Source: Candidatus Poribacteria bacterium (GTDB lineage Bacteria; Poribacteria; WGA-4E; WGA-3G). From it: a stretch of DNA of 64,000 bases. The notes under the pieces were generated by a model. It was given only the letters and a program-made list of their open reading frames with translations, was not told the DNA's origin and ran no database searches. A program made the translations under genes and the position numbers. This document shows, piece by piece, positions 39,171 through 45,367 of the stretch (position 1 is the stretch's first letter; each line of letters starts with the position of its first letter). The DNA is taken from the NCBI GenBank assembly GCA_965214095.1, contig OZ243938.1, positions 4,512,001-4,576,000 of the forward strand, in the 5' to 3' direction.

Positions 39171-40286
39171 ATGAAGCATCTGAATCTTCGCACGTATGCG
39201 ATGGTGATTGCACTCATCTCAATCTGGATCATCTTCACTCTCATTACAAATGGCACTTTCCTCACTACACGCAATCTCTCAATTCTATCACGACAAGCAA
39301 CAGTTACTGCTATTCTTGCAATAGGAATGGTATTAGTCATCATCTCAGCAAATATTGACCTTTCAGTCGGGTTCGGTTCAGGTCTACTTGGTGCTATCAC
39401 TGCAATATTACATGTTTGGTGGGAATTTCCAATAATCCTGACTCTCATTTTAGTAATTTTCATCGGCATACTAATCGGTGTATTGCATGGGTTTCTCATT
39501 GCATATCAACGAATCCCAGCATTTATTGTCACACTCGGTGGATTCCTGTTGTATCGTGGACTAATGTTGGCATTCACAAAAGGTGAAACTATTCTCCTTC
39601 CTGACAATTGGTTAAAGTCTATCGGAACCACCCACCTTCCGCCTACGATTGGATGGGGGATAATGCTCATCGGAATTGGTTTGAGCGTCTATGTGTTTTA
39701 TAGGCAACTCATTTCATCACAATTGCCTAAGACGTTCAAAGATCAGCTTCCAACGATGATGAAACTACTATCTACATTGGGATGTACTATAGTATTCGTC
39801 ATGGTAATGAATTCATACAAAGGAATTCCGCTTCCGGTATGTATTTTATTAGGTCTTGCATTCATATTTCATTTTATAGCAAACCGCACTCGGTTCGGTC
39901 GGTATGTTTATGCCATCGGAGGAAATGCTGAAGCTTCCTATTTGTCTGGATTAAACGTACGTCTTATAACTTTGCAAGTTTTTGCATTAATGGGGGCATT
40001 AATGGCAGTCGCTGGGGTTGTAATGACAACACGACTTGGGAGTGCAGGTCCAGGGGCAGGACGATTGCTTGAATTGGATGCAATCGCAGCATGTGTGATC
40101 GGCGGGGCAAGTTTGATGGGTGGACGCGGAACAATATTTGGGGCGATATTAGGTGCATTTGTCATGGCAAGCCTAAGTAATGGAATGAGTATGGCAAATA
40201 TGGGACCTGCATGGCAAGATATAATTAAAGGGATTGTCCTGGTAGCAGCTGTCGGATTTGACATGGCATCAAGAAAGAACAATTAA
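39171..40286 (+). CDS. Monosaccharide ABC transporter permease (XylH/GguB-like)
   Basis: IDLSVG, IPAFIVTLGG, RFGRYVYAIGGN, ELDAIAACVIGG. Confidence 0.92.
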   Translation: MKHLNLRTYAMVIALISIWIIFTLITNGTFLTTRNLSILSRQATVTAILAIGMVLVIISANIDLSVGFGSGLLGAITAILHVWWEFPIILTLILVIFIGILIGVLHGFLIAYQRIPAFIVTLGGFLLYRGLMLAFTKGETILLPDNWLKSIGTTHLPPTIGWGIMLIGIGLSVYVFYRQLISSQLPKTFKDQLPTMMKLLSTLGCTIVFVMVMNSYKGIPLPVCILLGLAFIFHFIANRTRFGRYVYAIGGNAEASYLSGLNVRLITLQVFALMGALMAVAGVVMTTRLGSAGPGAGRLLELDAIAACVIGGASLMGGRGTIFGAILGAFVMASLSNGMSMANMGPAWQDIIKGIVLVAAVGFDMASRKNN

Positions 40287-40363
40287 CTTCTAACGTCATT
40301 TTTTTAAACCAATTTCAAATTCTTCACCCTCTTTAAAGCCAAATTCTAATTGGGAATCTATCT

Positions 40364-42121
40364 ATGAATCATAATTTTGACAATCCAAACAACTTTACTG
40401 ATGCAGAATTGGTGAGACTTGTCCAATGTCGAGACGAAGCTGCATTCACCGAATTAATATCTCGGTATAGTCCACGAATCTGGAACATTGTATTAGACAA
40501 ATCAAGACAAACACGCGACGCAGAAGAAATCCTCATGGATATCTGGTTGGCTGTTTGGAATAACATTATTGGACTCCGTAATGTAGAAAGTTTTGGGGTA
40601 TGGTTACGTAAAATTGCAAATAGTGCATGCAATAGATATTATGCTTCAAAAAAGAACAAACACTCCGAAATCATTATGAGTTACGAAGATTTAACCATAC
40701 AGATTGATAGAGAAGCAGAACGACGGTTTCACGATGCAAAGTTGCGTGCTGATGCAAGAGAAGCTGTACATCAACTGCCGAATAAAGTACGTTCTATTGC
40801 AGAAATGTACTATTTGGATTTATTCAGTATCAATGATATTTCTAAAGAATACAACCTACCAATTGGTACGGTAAAGTCAAAACTGAGCGAAGTCCGACAG
40901 CTACTACGAAAAGAATTTGAAATTGAACCTACAAAGGAGAACACAATGTCAACAAAACATGACAATCATAAAAATGGTGGAATTAAATGTAAGATAGTTG
41001 GTGTAGGTGGAGCAGGATGCAATGCTGTCAAACATCTCATCAAAAAAGAAGATACTGACATAATAGATTTTGGGGTGAATGATGAAATTGTCATAGATTT
41101 CTATGCAATTGATACAGACAGTGAGGCTTTAAATTCATGCAAAGAAGTCACTCAGATTCAAATTGGTGCAACCGTTACACAAGAACAAGGAACGGGAGGG
41201 AAGCTTGAACTTGGTAGAAGAGCAGCAGCCGAAAGCATGGATGAACTTCAATCCATTGTCTCCGATGCCGATATGCTTTTTATTATTGCTGGTATGGGTG
41301 GTGGAACGGGGACTGCAGTCGCACCTGTAATCACATCTTTAGCTCGTGTACATAAAACATTAACTGTCTGCATTGCAACCCGACCGCTTGACACTGAGGA
41401 AAAACACAAAAAAGAAAATGCTGATGAAGGATTGAGTGAACTCCAAGATGATCCAGATTCGTGTGCAGATGCTGTTATCGTTGTTCCAAACCAGCAAATC
41501 TTGGATTCACAAGAGCCAAAGTTACAGATGAGTGGATTATTCCAGCTAACAAATGATATCCTTTCCGATGGAGTAATGTTAATTTTGGACTTACTGTTAC
41601 AAACCGGGGAGATAAATATAGATTTTGATGACATACAAGAACTGTTCCGAGATAAGGGAACTATGCTAATAGGTATTGGGAAAGCAAAGGGTGAAAATCG
41701 AGCAACAATTGCTGCCAAAAACGCAATCAACTCGCTTCTCATTCAAGGAAACACTATTGAATCAAATGTCGATATGTTAATTAACATATATTCACCATAC
41801 GATTTCACAATGCATGAACTTGACCAAACGATGTGTGTCATTTGTGAAAAATATCGCGATGCACAACCCATGTTTGCATTAGTCTACAAGGATGAATTAG
41901 AAAAGAACGATGAAGTAATTGTTACGATATTATCAAGTTGTGCAGAAAAGCAAGAATCATCTCCCTCATCAATTCCTACAAGAGAAGAGGGTAAGACTCC
42001 CGAACAAGATCCAGAAACGTCATCATCTGATCCAGATTCTGTAGCTTCACAAAGTCGCGATTTCTTTAACACTCTTCCTGTCAAATCCCCATGCTTTAGT
42101 GCTTTAGCTTGCGGGATGTAG
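40364..42121 (+). CDS. ECF sigma factor fused to an FtsZ-like GTPase; 3' end disrupted by an IS605-family insertion
   Basis: aa 1-187: sigma2 (DAEEILMDIWLAVW..FGVWLRKIA) and sigma4 (LPIGTVKSKL). aa ~207-530: GVGGAGCNAV, IDTD, AGMGGGTGTA, GEINIDFDD, GIGKAKGENRA. The last 17 codons come from the IS left end. Confidence 0.9.
   Translation: MNHNFDNPNNFTDAELVRLVQCRDEAAFTELISRYSPRIWNIVLDKSRQTRDAEEILMDIWLAVWNNIIGLRNVESFGVWLRKIANSACNRYYASKKNKHSEIIMSYEDLTIQIDREAERRFHDAKLRADAREAVHQLPNKVRSIAEMYYLDLFSINDISKEYNLPIGTVKSKLSEVRQLLRKEFEIEPTKENTMSTKHDNHKNGGIKCKIVGVGGAGCNAVKHLIKKEDTDIIDFGVNDEIVIDFYAIDTDSEALNSCKEVTQIQIGATVTQEQGTGGKLELGRRAAAESMDELQSIVSDADMLFIIAGMGGGTGTAVAPVITSLARVHKTLTVCIATRPLDTEEKHKKENADEGLSELQDDPDSCADAVIVVPNQQILDSQEPKLQMSGLFQLTNDILSDGVMLILDLLLQTGEINIDFDDIQELFRDKGTMLIGIGKAKGENRATIAAKNAINSLLIQGNTIESNVDMLINIYSPYDFTMHELDQTMCVICEKYRDAQPMFALVYKDELEKNDEVIVTILSSCAEKQESSPSSIPTREEGKTPEQDPETSSSDPDSVASQSRDFFNTLPVKSPCFSALACGM
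40934..40948 (+). promoter_or_regulatory. Internal in-frame RBS + ATG at the sigma/FtsZ junction
   Basis: AAGGAG (40934-40939), 6-nt spacer, ATG 40946 = codon 195 of the fusion ORF. Confidence 0.7.
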
Positions 42122-42134
42122 ACGGGCAAAAAGG

Positions 42135-42162
42135 TTGATTTTGAGAAAGAACACACTATAAT
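42135..42162 (+). promoter_or_regulatory. Putative sigma70 promoter for tnpB within the IS left end
   Basis: TTGATT-16 nt-TATAAT. Confidence 0.55.
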
Positions 42163-42248
42163 ACAAATACCTTTTCAGTGGTGGATGTCGTTAGCATCTG
42201 CCACACTACTAACGATGGGTAAGAGGTTCTTCACCGAGAAGGCGGACT

Positions 42249-43361
42249 ATGAGAAAAACCTATAAATACAAGGGACAACATCAAAAGAACACGCTAAAAC
42301 TTGGCAATCTGCTTGACGATATGCATCAGATCCATGTGCATATTATGCGATTGCAGAAGAGGTATTATCGCATATATAAGAAAAACATATCTGCCTATAC
42401 TATGAATCGTCATATTACGAAGTTGAAAAAGCGGACAAAGCCTCATTGGGCAGACTTGCCGAGTCAAGTTATTCAAGATGTTGTGCTGCGTATGGGTAAA
42501 GCCTACGACGCGTTTTTTAGGAATATAAAAGACCGCAAAGAAGGTAAAACAGCAAAGAAAATCGGTAGACCAAAGATTAAACCGCAACATAAATACAACT
42601 CTATGACGTTTACACAGGCAGGATATAAACTTGAAGGGAACCGTATCAAGATCAACTGTATAGATACGTGGTTTTCCTTTCATAAACATCGTGAAATAAC
42701 AGGTGACATCAAAACAATAACCCTCAAGCGTGACAGGTGTGGCGATTACTGGATATGCTTTTCTTGTGATAACGTTGACACACCGAAATCTTTTGCGAAG
42801 ACAGGTGAAAGTGCTGGCTTTGATTTCGGATTGACAACCTTTCTCACAGCTTCTAATGGTAATAAGATTGTGTCTCCGCAGTTTTTGAAAAAGTCCTTGA
42901 ACAAGTTGAGAACACTGAATAAAAGTGTGAGTCGTAAAGTCGAGGGATCAGGCAATTGGTATCGTGCTATCCGTGCGTTGTTGCGGGAGTATAGGAAGAT
43001 AGCGCGACAACGTCTTGACTGGCAGTGGAAACTTGCTACAGACCTTTGCAGGCATTTTGATACCTTGTGTTTTGAAACCCTCAATATAGACGGCATGAAA
43101 CGCCTCTGGGGACGCAAAGTCAGTGATCTCGCTTGCTACCAGTTCATTCAAGTGTTGGCATTCAAGTGTGCGAAACACGATAAAACTTTCCTCAAAATCG
43201 GACAATGGACAGCGACAACAAAACCCTGTAGCAACTGCGGACACACAAACGATAAACTAACACTTTCAGATAGACACTGGATATGTCCTACGTGCAATAC
43301 TGAACACGATAGAGACATCAATGCCGCTATCAATATCAAACAGGCAGGCTTAGCTGCCTAA
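42249..43361 (+). CDS. tnpB: TnpB RNA-guided endonuclease
   Basis: RuvC-I GFDFG, RuvC-II FETL, zinc finger CSNC..CPTC, RuvC-III HDRDINAAINI; N-terminal KTYKYK. Confidence 0.95.
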   Translation: MRKTYKYKGQHQKNTLKLGNLLDDMHQIHVHIMRLQKRYYRIYKKNISAYTMNRHITKLKKRTKPHWADLPSQVIQDVVLRMGKAYDAFFRNIKDRKEGKTAKKIGRPKIKPQHKYNSMTFTQAGYKLEGNRIKINCIDTWFSFHKHREITGDIKTITLKRDRCGDYWICFSCDNVDTPKSFAKTGESAGFDFGLTTFLTASNGNKIVSPQFLKKSLNKLRTLNKSVSRKVEGSGNWYRAIRALLREYRKIARQRLDWQWKLATDLCRHFDTLCFETLNIDGMKRLWGRKVSDLACYQFIQVLAFKCAKHDKTFLKIGQWTATTKPCSNCGHTNDKLTLSDRHWICPTCNTEHDRDINAAINIKQAGLAA

Positions 43362-43474
43362 AGTGGAGATGACGTGAGACGGGGGATCCTTTTGGAGAAA
43401 CGCTGTTGTCAAGGAAGCACAAGCCCCAACCTTTAGGTTGTGGGTCACTATGACCATATTGATTGATGACCAAC
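43340..43474 (+). ncRNA. Predicted TnpB omega/reRNA (right-end scaffold plus ~16-20 nt flanking guide); 5' boundary uncertain
   Basis: Inferred from established TnpB biology. The scaffold would end at the IS right end (TGAC 43454) and the guide would be CATATTGATTGATGACCAAC. Confidence 0.55.
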
Positions 43475-43605
43475 AGATACCAGAATCTGTACAGTTAGCT
43501 ATTGATAACAGTTTATCTGTAAGTAATTCTTCCAGACTAAATCTCAGAGCGCCACCATACTATCTGTTGACAGAACTTCCAACTCCGGTTTTATGTTTTC
43601 TATAG
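43455..43605 (+). pseudogene. Displaced original 3' end of the sigma-FtsZ gene
   Basis: Joining 42069 to 43455 reads in frame: ..DFFN-ILIDDQQIPESVQLAIDNSLSVSNSSRLNLRAPPYYLLTELPTPVLCFL* (TAG 43603-05). Confidence 0.75.
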
Positions 43606-43707
43606 ACATCGGAGCCGCATATCTTATCAAAAACACTTTGAAAGTTCAAACGACTATCCTGAAAATCCTAGTTCAGAGAAAAAGAATTGCACTAAATTAG
43701 GCGTTTT

Positions 43708-43806
43708 CCCCAGGACGGTAGGTTCGGTTTCCTAACCGAACCTACCGTCCTGGGGCGTTTGGCATTTGTGAAAAAGACACAAGAAAAACCAAAAACTAAA
43801 TAGCCC
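43708..43806. repeat. Palindrome with perfect 22-bp arms (GGTAG REP-like), plus a TIR-family end
   Basis: CCCCAGGACGGTAGGTTCGGTT-TCCT-AACCGAACCTACCGTCCTGGGG (43708-43755); 43762-43806 is close to the reverse complement of 46845-46891. Confidence 0.9.
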
Positions 43807-43825
43807 TACATGGCTGCAAACATTA

Positions 43826-43854
43826 TTGACATAATACCCTATCCGTGTTAATAT
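43826..43854 (+). promoter_or_regulatory. Putative sigma70 promoter for comF
   Basis: TTGACA-17 nt-TAATAT with an extended -10 TG. Confidence 0.55.
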
Positions 43855-43883
43855 ACCACGACATACATAAACGGTAGCCAAAT

Positions 43884-44645
43884 ATGCACATACGACCCAA
43901 CTTTCTACAACAGACCATTGAAACTGCAATTACATTCTTATATCCAGCACAATGCAAAGTTTGTGAAAATCAACTCGGACTTGAATCTGCACCTTATATA
44001 TGCAATGCTTGCTGGAAAGATATTGAATATATTGAGCCACCTTGGTGTGAGATCTGCGGAATGCCAAAGGCTGAAAACCTATGTAATTTTTGTGCAACGA
44101 AACCGCCACGTTTTGGTAAATTGCGAACGATCACTGTTTACGAAACTACAATACAACAAGCGATACATCTATTCAAATTCAACAAACGACCTTCATTCAG
44201 TCATACACTAATACAACTTATTTTAGACAACATACCACGCGACTTAAACCTTACTGACTATGACTACGTCCTTCCAGTACCCATTCACAAAAAACGGCTA
44301 CGTGAGCGCGGATTCAACCAGTCTACACTCCTTGCAAAAGGGATTGCGAAAGTTGTTGGTCTTAGAGTAATAGAAGATGTACTTATAAGAGAAAAAAATA
44401 CATCACCTCAGAGCAGTTTAGACAGAGAAGCACGTCAAACGAACATAAAAGGTGCATTTAATCTACTGGATGCTGATAAAATACGTGACAAACATATCCT
44501 CGTTTTTGATGATGTTTTTACCACGGGGGCAACAATTCGTGAAGTGGTAAATGTATTATGGGATGCCGACCCAATTGAAATAGATGTGTTAACATTAGCA
44601 AGGACTTTAACACTCTTCCCGTCAAATCCGCCTGCATTAGTTTAG
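43884..44645 (+). CDS. comF: ComF family protein (double zinc ribbon + phosphoribosyltransferase)
   Basis: CKVC/CNAC/CEIC/CNFC, PVPIHKKRLRERGFNQS, VFDDVFTTGAT, LTLAR. Confidence 0.93.
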   Translation: MHIRPNFLQQTIETAITFLYPAQCKVCENQLGLESAPYICNACWKDIEYIEPPWCEICGMPKAENLCNFCATKPPRFGKLRTITVYETTIQQAIHLFKFNKRPSFSHTLIQLILDNIPRDLNLTDYDYVLPVPIHKKRLRERGFNQSTLLAKGIAKVVGLRVIEDVLIREKNTSPQSSLDREARQTNIKGAFNLLDADKIRDKHILVFDDVFTTGATIREVVNVLWDADPIEIDVLTLARTLTLFPSNPPALV

Positions 44646-44782: not shown

Positions 44783-45367
44783 ATGAATCCAGACGAATTG
44801 AAAGATGCTGAGGATGCGGAACTCATCGTGGCGGTATTGGCTGGTAATCACAAAGCGTTTGATGAATTAGTGTACCGGTATCAACGCGGTATGCTTTCCG
44901 TAGCACAACAGGTTGTCCGAAACCCAATTGAAGCGGAAGACATTGTCCAAGATGCATTCTTACTTGCATTTGAGGCATTACCGCAACTTGATAATCTAAA
45001 TAGATTTGGTTCTTGGCTCTATTCAATTACACGTAATCGCGCACTACGTTTCATGAAACGATCAAGTAGAATACAATTGCATGACGATGTAGATACAGAA
45101 TTGCAAATAGAGGCAGATCCTGCTTCAACAGATCCTGCACAAATAGTGGAACAGGAATCTACCCATGAAGATGTCAGGGAAGCGATTGATTCACTACCTT
45201 CAGATTTTAAGGAGGTAATCACGCTCTATTATTGGGCAGATATGCCGCAGAAACGGATTGCCGAAACACTTTCGCTCCCCTTAACAACGGTAAAATGGAG
45301 ACTTCATAAAGGGAAAGACTTACTAAAAACCGTATTAGAAAAACGTGGATATGGAGATATTTTGTAG
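44783..45367 (+). CDS. ECF (sigma-70 group 4) RNA polymerase sigma factor
   Basis: AFDELVYRY, EAEDIVQDAF, FGSWLYSITRN, IAETLSLPLTTVKWRL. Confidence 0.95.
   Translation: MNPDELKDAEDAELIVAVLAGNHKAFDELVYRYQRGMLSVAQQVVRNPIEAEDIVQDAFLLAFEALPQLDNLNRFGSWLYSITRNRALRFMKRSSRIQLHDDVDTELQIEADPASTDPAQIVEQESTHEDVREAIDSLPSDFKEVITLYYWADMPQKRIAETLSLPLTTVKWRLHKGKDLLKTVLEKRGYGDIL

What the first reader, a model, noticed from the sequence alone, without database searches (positions are those of the whole stretch)
40364..42121. ECF sigma factor fused to a complete FtsZ-like GTPase core
Seen: one uninterrupted ORF with sigma2 and sigma4 (aa 1-187), followed by a domain that aligns by eye, motif by motif, with FtsZ. 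The motifs are GVGGAGCNAV (T1), IDTD, IQIG..T...GTGG, GMGGGTGTA (tubulin signature; the last G is A), P...E...K, NIDFDD (T7 loop), and the C-terminal subdomain GIGKAKGENRA...MLINI...VTIL. No ftsA/ftsQ/mur genes are nearby. Established: the T7 N-x-D-x-x-D residues drive polymerisation-coupled GTP hydrolysis, and several ECF groups are regulated by C-terminal extensions instead of anti-sigma factors. I know of no characterised ECF with a tubulin/FtsZ extension. Inference: a one-component regulator in which GTP binding or (co)polymerisation, possibly with the Z-ring, sequesters or releases a sigma factor and so links transcription to division or GTP status.
Basis: partly seen in the sequence, partly recalled or inferred. 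Interest (0 to 1): 0.92.

Follow-up and report, generated by a model that had tools for sequence, protein, structure and literature searches.

The report
Sigma factor fused to FtsZ copy
A real gene, conserved in one family of uncultured Poribacteria, joins a complete ECF-type sigma factor to a diverged spare copy of the division protein FtsZ, a combination I found in no paper.

Summary
Window 40364-42121 (+) is one open 585-codon frame: an ECF sigma factor (sigma2 and sigma4, aa 1-187), a roughly 20-residue disordered linker, then a full FtsZ core. It is not an assembly artefact. 76 such genes occur in 75 of 100 genomes of one Poribacteria family, and in none of 51 genomes of eight other families. 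Contigs from other sequencing runs cross the junction without gaps.

New points:
- The FtsZ part is a lineage-specific paralogue. The genome keeps a canonical ftsZ beside ftsA.
- The gene descends from a roughly 1430-aa sigma-FtsZ-DnaE triple fusion still present in 51 genomes. Its relatives' tail is a leftover of the DnaE PHP domain.
- In this genome a 1383-bp TnpB insertion sequence (42072-43454) cut off the last 27 codons.
- A Shine-Dalgarno site plus ATG (M195) sits at the junction in all 26 orthologues that could be read. This suggests a second, FtsZ-only product.
- A conserved ECF-type promoter precedes the gene and a sigma-WD40 paralogue.

Both domains are under purifying selection. The mechanism (FtsZ-like assembly gating an autoregulated sigma) is inferred, not shown. 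I found no paper describing this architecture.

The parts
40299..40332 (+). Conserved ECF-type promoter-like element: TTTTTTTAAACC (40299-40310), a 17-nt spacer, then CCTCT (40328-40332). It is followed by the conserved leader ..ctaattgggaatct.. up to the ATG.
   Evidence: The sequence is. The element is conserved in all 27 aligned upstream regions of fusion orthologues, even where the farther flanks differ. It is present upstream of class A genes of genera g1 and g2. Class C genes carry it with a CACTCT/CACTCA variant. The strict pattern has only 3 hits in the 5.2-Mb genome. Two of them lie 62-63 nt before the ATG of this gene and of a sigma-WD40 paralogue. Promoter function is inferred.
40364..40924 (+). 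ECF sigma factor module (aa 1-187): sigma2 at about aa 13-92, a flexible sigma2-sigma4 linker at 94-128, and sigma4 at about aa 130-185.
   Evidence: Pfam and NCBIfam hits and the SigW match. In the AF2 model the helices have pLDDT of about 75-88. dN/dS is 0.11-0.14 in comparisons with dS of 0.28 or more. Many columns are invariant across 70 family members.
40925..40987 (+). Junction and linker (aa 188-208), holding an internal Shine-Dalgarno AAGGAG (40934-40939) and ATG (40946-40948, M195).
   Evidence: The sequence is. An SD-like purine motif plus ATG (GTG once) is kept at the nucleotide level in 26 of 26 orthologue junctions that could be read, while the encoded residues vary. It is also kept in 2 of 2 class C genes and 1 of 2 sigma-WD40 paralogues. 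A strict SD precedes 0.67% of internal in-frame ATGs in this genome, against 21% of first ATGs. pLDDT is below 50 for aa 188-204.
40988..41506 (+). FtsZ/tubulin GTPase domain (aa 209-381), with an 11-residue clade-specific insertion after helix H1 (about aa 229-239).
   Evidence: Pfam Tubulin E 4.4e-38. The alignment to the genome's own FtsZ is. pLDDT is about 88-93, except in the insertion. dN/dS is 0.20-0.36.
41657..41929 (+). FtsZ C-terminal subdomain (aa 432-522). The T7 loop NIDFDD lies at aa 418-423, just upstream.
   Evidence: Pfam FtsZ_C E 1.4e-9.
41945..42070 (+). Disordered Ser/Pro/Glu-rich tail (aa 528-569), homologous to the FtsZ-to-DnaE linker of the triple fusions.
   Evidence: pLDDT is below 35.
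42072..43454 (+). IS200/IS605-type element carrying only tnpB (ORF 42249-43361), inserted into the 3' end of the fusion gene. Its first 50 bases supply the last 16 codons and the stop (42119-42121) of the present ORF. Boundaries are good to about 2 nt.
   Evidence: Homology to the orthologous loci L006 and L007 stops at 42071 and resumes at 43455 (sequences). Pfam finds OrfB_IS605 and the Cas12f1-like TNB domain. Three full-length copies lie in the genome, at 100, 92 and 91% identity over bases 1-1383. A contig from run X19 joins 42068 to 43455, which is the IS-free form.
43455..43540 (+). Displaced original 3' end of the gene. It encodes ..ILIDDQQIPESVQLAIDNS.., a remnant of the DnaE PHP-domain N-terminus, and is now cut off from the ORF.
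   Evidence: The tail of the orthologue P0002 aligns with residues 574-593 of the triple fusion P0121, inside its PHP domain.

Best explanation
**What is shown.**
- The ORF is a lineage-specific, selectively maintained gene of one family of Candidatus Poribacteria.
- A complete ECF sigma factor is joined by a short disordered linker to a diverged paralogue of the cell's own FtsZ.
- It arose from a larger sigma-FtsZ-DnaE fusion by loss of the polymerase. Relatives keep about 36 residues of the PHP domain as a tail.
- In this genome an IS has replaced that tail.

**What is inferred.**
1. The sigma part is a working ECF sigma that drives its own promoter (TTTTTTTAAACC-N17-CCTCT), as ECF sigmas usually do.
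2. The mRNA gives two proteins. One is the full sigma-FtsZ. The other is an FtsZ-only protein started at the conserved internal SD+ATG (M195), which corresponds to the start codon of the ancestral ftsZ copy.
3. The FtsZ-like domain still binds GTP (T1 largely kept, the GGGTG core of T4 invariant). By assembling with itself, with the untagged product or with canonical FtsZ, it plays the role that C-terminal extensions play in other anti-sigma-less ECF groups.
4. In that role it decides how much sigma is free to join RNA polymerase. This would close a feedback loop on a self-activating promoter.

I hold the architecture, ancestry and selection with high confidence (about 0.9). I hold the two-product reading at about 0.6 and the assembly-gates-sigma step at about 0.3. 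The figure given is for the whole statement.
For: **Conservation of the fusion.**
- 76 matches in 75 of 100 genomes of family f1 cover both sigma and the full FtsZ with no stop. None of the 51 genomes of the eight other families has one.
- More than 100 fused proteins appear in the protein collection. The few that are named come from Candidatus Poribacteria.

**Sequencing support for the junction.**
- A 5807-nt contig of run X1 covers 40300-42149 with 1 difference and no gap.
- Contigs from RNA libraries of relatives cross the junction without gaps: X18 over 40859-41556 and X19 over 40738-41513.

**Selection.**
- dN/dS is 0.11-0.14 for sigma (0.65 in the L008-L009 pair, where dS is only 0.017).
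- dN/dS is 0.20-0.36 for FtsZ-N and 0.20-0.70 for FtsZ-C.

**Origin of the FtsZ part.**
- All fusion-type FtsZ domains form one clade (SH-aLRT 95), apart from the canonical Poribacteria FtsZs.
- The canonical ftsZ, with the DIPSFLR peptide and next to ftsA, lies elsewhere in the genome.

**Ancestry from the triple fusion.**

**Promoter.**

**Internal SD+ATG.**
- dS is 0 in the linker in the three closest pairs, although dN is above 0.

**GTP-binding motifs.** GGGTG is invariant and T1 is kept.

**No anti-sigma candidate** among the six neighbouring ORFs scanned.

**Precedent.** C-terminal extensions are the second most common way of regulating ECF sigmas and go with the lack of an anti-sigma (PMC7826278, passages read).
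Against: - No experiment or structure links FtsZ assembly to sigma activity.
- The FtsZ domain evolves faster than sigma.
- Its T3 loop is changed, from GLGAGSNP to EQGTGGKL. The first T7 Asp is lost in the closest orthologues. The full T7 motif is intact in only 26 of 55 members.
- The class C paralogues stop before T7, so they cannot form a two-sided polymer.
- Natural variants have deleted the FtsZ core altogether but kept sigma: P0126, and P0128 which is sigma-DnaE. FtsZ is therefore not indispensable to the sigma.
- With the strict pattern the promoter motif is found only before this gene and one paralogue. No regulon beyond self-expression is visible.
- The window copy has lost the conserved tail to an IS, so it may be impaired.
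- The RNA-library contigs may contain DNA and come from relatives, not from this strain.
Confidence: 0.45

Rival explanations
1. Collapsed operon, or cargo model. The sigma part is only the self-activating driver of the locus. The useful product is the FtsZ-like protein (in relatives FtsZ-DnaE, DnaN or WD40), made mainly from the internal start. The fused polypeptide is a tolerated side product of a lost stop codon, and the FtsZ domain does not regulate the sigma.
For: - The junction Met lies within one column of the start of canonical FtsZ.
- A strong SD is conserved in front of it.
- The same sigma module with the same junction is joined to unrelated cargos: WD40, DnaN, DnaE.
- The promoter motif is seen only before the sigma-cargo genes themselves.
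Against: - The frame stays open across the junction in 76 of 76 full-length matches. Only one genome, G044, shows a frameshift, and that lies inside sigma4. A useless fusion should often have regained a stop.
- The SD for the sigma start is weaker than the internal one, but it is conserved.
Confidence: 0.25
2. Integrated bait. The fused copies of essential cell-cycle proteins (FtsZ, DnaE, DnaN) serve as decoys for inhibitors made by phages, toxins or the sponge host. Binding of an inhibitor to the bait frees or activates the sigma.
For: - The sigma clade is fused only to duplicated, not original, copies of FtsZ, DnaE and DnaN, and to WD40 binding domains.
- The duplicates evolve fast and lose catalytic detail (T7, T3) while keeping the fold.
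- Domain shuffling in the family is extensive.
Against: - None of the four proteins scanned matches a PADLOC defence family.
- The six neighbouring ORFs scanned are not known defence genes.
- No regulon of effector genes carries the promoter motif.
- The DnaE part of the triple fusions keeps its catalytic PDIDIDF and KLD motifs (the motif names are recalled), which a pure decoy need not do.
Confidence: 0.1
3. Decaying relic in this genome. After losing the DnaE part, and now its tail to an IS, the window copy is on its way to becoming a pseudogene and has no function of its own.
For: - The IS insertion removed the conserved last 27 codons.
- The genome also holds a broken class C-like FtsZ copy.
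- dN/dS in the FtsZ part is higher than in sigma.
- Truncations at varied points are common in the family.
Against: - The 569 native codons are intact, with no stop or frameshift.
- dN/dS is well below 1 in both domains against five orthologues.
- Class B forms with the same end point persist down to about 50% identity.
- This copy retains all three T7 residues.
Confidence: 0.1
4. Assembly or gene-calling artefact: two neighbouring genes joined by a sequencing error.
For: The internal SD+ATG looks like an ordinary gene start.
Against: - The frame is open in 76 matches from 75 genomes, many of them single-contig assemblies.
- Independent proteins come from several sources.
- Contigs from four runs were laid. 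Three of them (X1, X18, X19) cross the junction without gaps.
Confidence: 0.01

Closest known systems
ECF sigma factors regulated by fused C-terminal extensions (ECF41/ECF42/ECF56 with SnoaL- or TPR-type extensions; ECF57 with WD40-like extensions)
   Same: - It has a sigma2-sigma4 core.
- No anti-sigma gene was found among the six neighbouring ORFs scanned.
- It has a large C-terminal domain on the same polypeptide.
- A conserved promoter lies in front of its own gene.
- The closest paralogues in this genome (50-54% identity in sigma) are sigma-WD40 fusions. That matches the description of ECF57 in PMC8999054 (passage read).
   Different: - The extension is an FtsZ/tubulin GTPase, and in relatives FtsZ plus a DNA polymerase III alpha core. 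Neither 'tubulin', 'FtsZ' nor 'GTPase' occurs in the main text of PMC7826278, PMC8999054 or PMC7671368. Their supplements could not be opened.
- A conserved internal translation start at the junction is not a described feature of those groups, as far as I recall.
Canonical FtsZ (TIGR00065) of the same genome
   Same: - It has both FtsZ subdomains and the T1, T2, T4 and T7 motifs.
- It is 47% identical over 282 aligned residues to the genome's own FtsZ.
- PDB FtsZ matches reach E 2.9e-56.
   Different: - It scores below the equivalog cut-off.
- It has no FtsA-binding C-terminal peptide and is not in the dcw cluster.
- It has an altered T3 loop and an 11-residue insertion.
- It carries an N-terminal sigma factor.
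Accessory FtsZ paralogues without the C-terminal peptide (for example the FtsZ-like families of PMC2875224, of which only the listing and abstract were seen, and magnetotactic FtsZm, recalled)
   Same: It is a recent or ancient duplicate of FtsZ that has lost the membrane-tether peptide and sits outside the division cluster.
   Different: As far as I know, none of those is fused to a transcription factor or a polymerase. This one is a young, family-specific duplicate of the host's own FtsZ.
Sigma-FtsZ-DnaE triple fusions of the same bacterial family (found here, not in print as far as my searches show)
   Same: It shares the promoter, leader, sigma, junction with SD+ATG, FtsZ core and linker. 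Identity is 58% end to end between P0002 and P0121.
   Different: The window gene lacks the roughly 870-aa DnaE part (PHP, palm, fingers, HhH). Unlike its closest relatives, it also lacks the 27-residue PHP remnant.

Membership tests
ECF (group 4) sigma-70 factors | Only regions sigma2 and sigma4, with no region 1.1 or 3 | tested here: met
   Pfam finds r2 at aa 31-97 and r4_2 at aa 131-180 and no other sigma region. AF2 shows two helical bundles joined by a low-confidence linker.
ECF (group 4) sigma-70 factors | Score above the curated family threshold | tested here: met
   NCBIfam TIGR02937 sigma70-ECF scores 62.1 bits against a cut-off of 42.9. Pfam r4_2 alone falls just short (25.1 against 25.7) in this protein, but passes in the relative P0121 at 35.4 bits.
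ECF (group 4) sigma-70 factors | Self-regulated promoter with an AAC-containing -35 element upstream of its own gene | tested here: inconclusive
   A conserved TTTTTTTAAACC-N17-CCTCT element lies upstream in all 27 aligned orthologues and one paralogue. Recognition by this sigma was not tested.
ECF (group 4) sigma-70 factors | Cognate anti-sigma factor encoded next to it | tested here: not met
   The neighbours are an SDR, TatD, an ABC permease, TnpB, a ComF-like gene and another ECF sigma. This is the usual state for ECF groups with C-terminal extensions (PMC7826278).
ECF57 (WD40-extension group) | Assignment by the ECF classification HMMs; WD40-like C-terminal extension | not testable with these tools
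   The group HMMs are not on hand. This protein has FtsZ instead of WD40. Its nearest paralogues in the genome do carry WD40.
FtsZ (cell-division protein, TIGR00065 equivalog) | Score at or above the equivalog cut-off | tested here: not met
   255.7 bits against a cut-off of 295.2.
FtsZ/tubulin superfamily | GTPase domain plus FtsZ C-terminal subdomain | tested here: met
   PF00091 at E 4.4e-38 and PF12327 at E 1.4e-9. The AF2 model is confident in this region.
FtsZ/tubulin superfamily | Tubulin signature GGGTG(T/S)G (T4) and glycine-rich T1 | tested here: met
   The T4 sequence is GMGGGTGTA, with the last G changed to A. T1 is GVGGAGCNAV. GGGTG is invariant in 70 family members.
FtsZ/tubulin superfamily | T7 synergy loop N-x-D-x-x-D (motif as recalled and as in the finding) | tested here: met
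   The window protein has NIDFDD. In the family the motif is intact in 26 of 55 members with a C-terminal subdomain, and the last Asp is kept in 54 of 55.
FtsZ (cell-division protein) | Conserved C-terminal peptide that binds FtsA/ZipA | tested here: not met
   The canonical copy ends ..WDIPSFLRVQQK... The fusion has no such peptide.
FtsZ (cell-division protein) | Location in the division and cell-wall cluster next to ftsA | tested here: not met
   The canonical ftsZ next to an FtsA-like ORF (by eye, not scanned) is at G000:C1, about 4085-4088 kb. The fusion lies elsewhere, among unrelated genes.
FtsZ/tubulin superfamily | GTP-dependent polymerisation and GTP hydrolysis | not testable with these tools
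   This needs purified protein.
IS200/IS605 family (tnpB-only element) | TnpB with OrfB_IS605 and a zinc-ribbon/TNB domain; a discrete unit present in several copies | tested here: met
   PF01385 at 1e-18 and PF07282 at 1.9e-19. There are three full-length copies with the same ends. The empty site is seen in relatives.

The most novel reading that the evidence does not exclude
The sigma module, with its own promoter, leader and a junction that keeps an SD and start codon, is a portable self-driving cassette. In this bacterial family it has repeatedly been joined, exactly at the start codon, to duplicated copies of core cell-cycle machines: FtsZ, DNA polymerase III alpha and the beta clamp.

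Two bold readings remain open:
- The copies are built-in baits that report attack on division or replication proteins to RNA polymerase.
- The fusions physically tie RNA polymerase to an FtsZ-like filament and a clamp-independent DNA polymerase, making a transcription-linked DNA-synthesis or positioning device.

The window gene would be the FtsZ-only version of such a device.
Probability: 0.12. Interest if true: 0.92.

Novelty: new variant of a known kind. Interest (0 to 1): 0.78.

Why it matters
- ECF sigma factors with fused sensor domains are a known class. A cytoskeletal GTPase as the fused domain would be a new input type: it would tie promoter choice to the nucleotide state or assembly state of a tubulin-like protein.
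- The relatives add a DNA polymerase core or a sliding clamp to the same sigma. I know of no such combinations, and the searches found none.
- The family offers a natural series for testing how a polymerising domain can control a transcription factor. The series runs: full triple fusion, FtsZ only, GTPase half only, FtsZ deleted.
- It also offers a test of whether one mRNA makes tagged and untagged subunits on purpose.
- The bacteria are uncultured sponge-associated Poribacteria, so heterologous work is the only route at present.

Tried and rejected
**Steps that led nowhere or were set aside.**
- **Complex prediction.** I tested sigma (aa 1-192) against the FtsZ part (aa 196-530), both as 70-row alignments. 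The median score was 0.26, under the mark of 0.32. The tool gave no verdict, so this is no evidence either way.
- **The search for related loci.** I used the genome search instead.
- **Rfam.** A scan of window 40000-44000 found no family.
- **PADLOC.** A scan of 4 fusion proteins found no match.
- **Second sigma-WD40 paralogue.** The one at C1:885939-888335 lacks the strict promoter motif. A relaxed motif scan gave 9 hits. Only the same two sigma genes looked meaningful, so no wider regulon was found.
- **G044.** It first looked like a natural split into two genes. It is a frameshift inside sigma4 in a single-contig assembly, so I do not count it as a split form.
- **A sigma-70-type reading of the promoter.** With TATAAC as the -10 element, the spacing to the conserved T-rich block is about 23 nt. 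The TATAAC is also not kept in the window's clade. I therefore prefer an ECF-type reading.
- **Sequencing runs.** Shares of 0.05-0.3 in many runs are largely the multi-copy IS or conserved parts from relatives. I draw no habitat or abundance conclusion from them. Run X5 covered only parts of the gene.
- **Fold search.** I did not run it, because sequence matches to solved FtsZ and SigW structures were already decisive.
- **Supplements.** An ECF group with a tubulin-type extension listed only there would escape my searches.
- **First filing of the report.** It was returned for a missing confidence field. I sent it again with the field filled in.
Full report
**1. The observation.**

Window 40364-42121 (+) is one uninterrupted frame of 585 codons.

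Pfam places four domains:
- Sigma70_r2 at aa 31-97.
- Sigma70_r4_2 at aa 131-180, 0.6 bit under its cut-off.
- The Tubulin/FtsZ GTPase domain at aa 209-381, E 4.4e-38.
- FtsZ_C at aa 432-522.

NCBIfam scores the N-terminus above the ECF sigma cut-off (62.1 against 42.9 bits). It scores the rest as ftsZ, but below the equivalog cut-off (255.7 against 295.2). Against solved structures, the best hits are FtsZ (4m8i, 2.9e-56, aa 208-570) and SigW (4.5e-12, aa 17-185).

An AlphaFold2 model built on a 70-row family alignment has mean pLDDT 70.8 and pTM 0.66. It shows:
- Two helical sigma bundles.
- A low-confidence stretch at aa 188-204.
- A confident FtsZ fold (pLDDT about 88-93 in the GTPase half).
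- A disordered tail from aa 528.

**2. It is real and conserved.**

A search of 5.8 billion proteins gave well over 100 proteins with sigma and Tubulin domains on one chain. The few that carry names are from Candidatus Poribacteria. The two loci found in genome contigs are Poribacteria MAGs.

A six-frame search of 151 genomes of the phylum gave these results:
- 76 matches in 75 genomes run from the sigma N-terminus through the whole FtsZ core without a stop.
- All 75 genomes lie in family f1: 32 of 38 genomes of genus g1 counting the window's own, 42 of 57 of g2, and the single g4 genome.
- The 51 genomes of the eight other families have only matches of E 3e-74 or weaker. This is the level of a lone FtsZ.

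Sequencing runs support the junction:
- A 5807-nt contig of run X1 covers 40300-42149 with one difference and no gap. X1 may be the source sample, so it is not independent.
- Contigs from two RNA libraries, about 91-93% identical and so from relatives, cross the sigma-FtsZ junction without gaps (40859-41556 and 40738-41513). RNA libraries can hold DNA, so this is a hint of expression, not proof.

**3. The FtsZ part is a spare copy.**

The genome has four other Tubulin matches at three places:
- A canonical ftsZ (439 aa) next to an FtsA-like ORF, ending in the ..DIPSFLRVQQK.. peptide.
- A near-identical second copy (415 aa) without that peptide.
- A broken copy, which gives two of the four matches.

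On a tree of 52 FtsZ cores, all fusion-type domains form one clade (SH-aLRT 95), apart from the canonical FtsZs of the phylum. The window sits in a clade of six short forms (support 100). This was a quick search with LG+G4, and several inner forks are unresolved.

The fused domain is 47% identical over 282 aligned residues to the genome's own FtsZ. It differs in these ways:
- An 11-residue insertion after H1.
- A changed T3 loop.
- A instead of the last G of the signature.
- No C-terminal peptide.

**4. Selection.**

I ran Nei-Gojobori comparisons of the window gene with five orthologues, and three further comparisons among orthologues.

| Region | dN/dS |
|---|---|
| sigma | 0.11-0.14 (pairs with dS of 0.28 or more) |
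| FtsZ GTPase half | 0.20-0.36 |
| FtsZ C-terminal half | 0.20-0.70 |

Both parts are kept by selection, the sigma more strictly. Across 70 family members most invariant columns lie in sigma. GGGTG is invariant.

The T7 motif N-x-D-x-x-D is intact in the window protein. It is intact in only 26 of 55 members that have the C-terminal half, while the last Asp is kept in 54 of 55. The three closest orthologues have lost the first Asp.

**5. Ancestry: a sigma-FtsZ-DnaE triple fusion.**

In 51 of the 76 matches the open frame is 1349-1744 aa. Two were read in full: P0121 (1435 aa) and P0122 (1426 aa).

After the FtsZ linker, Pfam finds PHP, DNA_pol3_alpha, the finger domain and HHH_6. The chain ends just before the place where the genome's standalone DnaE copies carry a Q-x-x-L-F clamp motif and the OB fold (the names of those motifs are recalled).

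The short forms end in ..IPESVQLAIDNSVSAVIHSD. In an end-to-end BLASTP this aligns with residues 574-593 of P0121, inside its PHP domain. The short form is therefore a truncated triple fusion. Other short forms end at or near the same point, or earlier in PHP.

DnaE copy numbers:
- Class A genomes G029 and G097 have one standalone DnaE plus the fused one.
- G000 and G092 have two standalone copies.

**6. This copy is clipped by an insertion sequence.**

DNA homology to the orthologous loci stops at window 42071 and resumes at 43455. The sequences show ..gatttctttaac | IS | atattgat...

The 1383-bp insert carries a tnpB gene (OrfB_IS605 plus TNB domain). It has two other full-length copies in the genome, at 92 and 91% identity. 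A contig of run X19 joins 42068 to 43455, which is the empty site in a relative.

The last 16 residues and the stop of the present ORF come from the IS. The original last 27 codons lie stranded at 43455-43540.

**7. An internal start at the junction.**

Six bases upstream of ATG 40946-40948 (M195) lies AAGGAG.

- In all 26 orthologue junctions that my pattern could read (of 30 loci; four had a variant motif and were not scored), an AGGAG, GGAGG or GGGGG-type motif precedes an ATG (GTG once). The encoded residues differ: KEN, RGK, RRG, EGE, RRK and others.
- The same holds in 2 of 2 class C genes and 1 of 2 sigma-WD40 paralogues.
- The genome has the usual anti-SD tail. A strict SD precedes 21% of the first ATGs of long ORFs, but only 0.67% of 12872 internal in-frame ATGs.
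- In the three closest pairs the linker has dS of 0 with dN above 0 (few sites).
- The Met lies within one column of the start of canonical FtsZ.

I infer a second, FtsZ-only product. This is not shown.

**8. A conserved promoter.**

Upstream regions of 27 orthologues share TTTTTTTAAACC, 17-18 variable bases, CCTCT, then a leader ..ctaattgggaa.. and the ATG. This holds even where the sequence farther upstream is unrelated.

- The element precedes class A genes of both large genera. Class C genes carry it with CACTCT or CACTCA.
- In the window's genome the strict pattern occurs three times in 5.2 Mb. Two of those lie 62-63 nt before the ATG of this gene and of a sigma-WD40 paralogue whose sigma is 54% identical.
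- The shape (an AAC-containing -35 element, a 17-nt spacer, a short C/T-rich -10 element) fits ECF promoters. Its position fits the usual self-regulation of ECF sigmas (general knowledge).
- No other target gene was found.

**9. The wider family.**

- A third class (about 400-460 aa, more than 60 listed matches) has sigma plus only the GTPase half. It ends before T7 and forms its own clade.
- The window genome's broken FtsZ copy ends like this class.
- A search of 1.84 billion cluster representatives found sigma-plus-FtsZ only in this family, plus one divergent sigma-GTPase-half protein (P0145, 35% identity). I scanned only 20 of the 150 listed hits with Pfam.
- The same search turned up several shuffles:
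  - sigma-DnaE with FtsZ deleted (P0128).
  - sigma plus tail with FtsZ deleted (P0126).
  - sigma-DnaN (P0152).
  - DnaN-FtsZ (P0170).
  - Many sigma-WD40 proteins.

**10. How it most likely works.**

Shown: the architecture, its ancestry, selection on both parts, a private conserved upstream element, and a conserved SD+ATG at the joint.

Inferred:
- The sigma activates its own promoter.
- The mRNA yields tagged and untagged FtsZ-like subunits.
- The GTP-binding FtsZ-like domain, by assembling, sets how much sigma can reach RNA polymerase.

This is the logic of other ECF groups that have a C-terminal extension instead of an anti-sigma factor (PMC7826278 and PMC8999054, passages read).

The points against it:
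- The T7 and T3 loops are eroded.
- Class C cannot polymerise on both faces.
- FtsZ-deleted variants exist.
- No regulon is visible.

The main rival is that the fusion is a collapsed operon whose real product is the cargo. A bolder rival is that the cargo copies are baits.

**11. Known or new.**

Eight full-text searches found no description of a sigma-FtsZ or sigma-FtsZ-DnaE protein. Term look-ups in three ECF overview papers found none either.

I file it as a new variant of a known kind: an ECF sigma with a fused C-terminal domain, and an accessory FtsZ paralogue.

**Verdict.**

Interest is high: the architecture is real, conserved and apparently undescribed, and it comes with a natural deletion series. 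The interest score is tempered because the mechanism is untested, the hosts are uncultured, and this particular copy is a truncated, IS-clipped derivative.

Noticed in passing
L038:8097-12404 (G029), L040:6621-10901 (G097); 51 genomes: Open frames of about 1350-1450 aa encode sigma-FtsZ-DnaE on one chain (PHP, pol III alpha, fingers, HhH). The chain ends before the clamp-binding and OB regions. The catalytic-looking PDIDIDF and KLD motifs are kept.
   Followed up: partly
window 42072-43454: A 1383-bp tnpB-only IS200/IS605-type element is inserted after ..TTTAAC in the 3' end of the fusion gene. Two more full copies (92% and 91% identity) lie at G000:C1:2066622-2067997 and 4645023-4646398. No Rfam family was hit in this stretch.
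   Followed up: partly
G000:C1:885939-888335 (-), 888713-891064 (-), 891161-893767 (-): A cluster of three ECF sigma factors is fused to long WD40 repeat regions (798, 783 and 868 aa). The first two are the closest sigma paralogues of the fusion (50-54% identity). The genome holds more than 40 ECF-like sigma matches.
   Followed up: partly
G000:C1:1883511-1884079 (L004/L005): A broken FtsZ-like copy (frameshift, 2 TGA) ends ..EFHSSITHKEIVL, like the sigma plus GTPase-half class. It has no sigma in front and lies upstream of yet another ECF sigma gene.
   Followed up: no
G000:C1:1110346-1111593 (L001:1459-2706): A second, nearly identical copy of canonical ftsZ (415 aa) lacks the FtsA-binding peptide and lies outside the division cluster. 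G092 has the same pair.
   Followed up: no
P0152, P0170, P0128, P0126: Further shuffles of the same parts were found in public proteins: sigma-DnaN (beta clamp), DnaN-FtsZ, sigma-DnaE with the FtsZ core deleted, and sigma plus tail with the FtsZ core deleted. Their genomes of origin are not known to me.
   Followed up: partly
window 40364-41500 versus L009 (G092): Divergence along the gene is mosaic. Synonymous divergence is 0.017 in the sigma part but 0.37 in the GTPase half. Amino-acid differences cluster around H7-T7-H8. This suggests recombination or gene conversion within the gene.
   Followed up: no
window 44783-45367: Another stand-alone ECF sigma factor (194 aa) lies 2.7 kb downstream, after a ComF-like phosphoribosyltransferase gene (43884-44645).
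   Followed up: no
L056 (G044:C1:4937966-4941946): In one single-contig genome the sigma part is cut by a frameshift inside sigma4, while the FtsZ part stays open from the junction Met. This may be a long-read error or a real decay step.
   Followed up: partly
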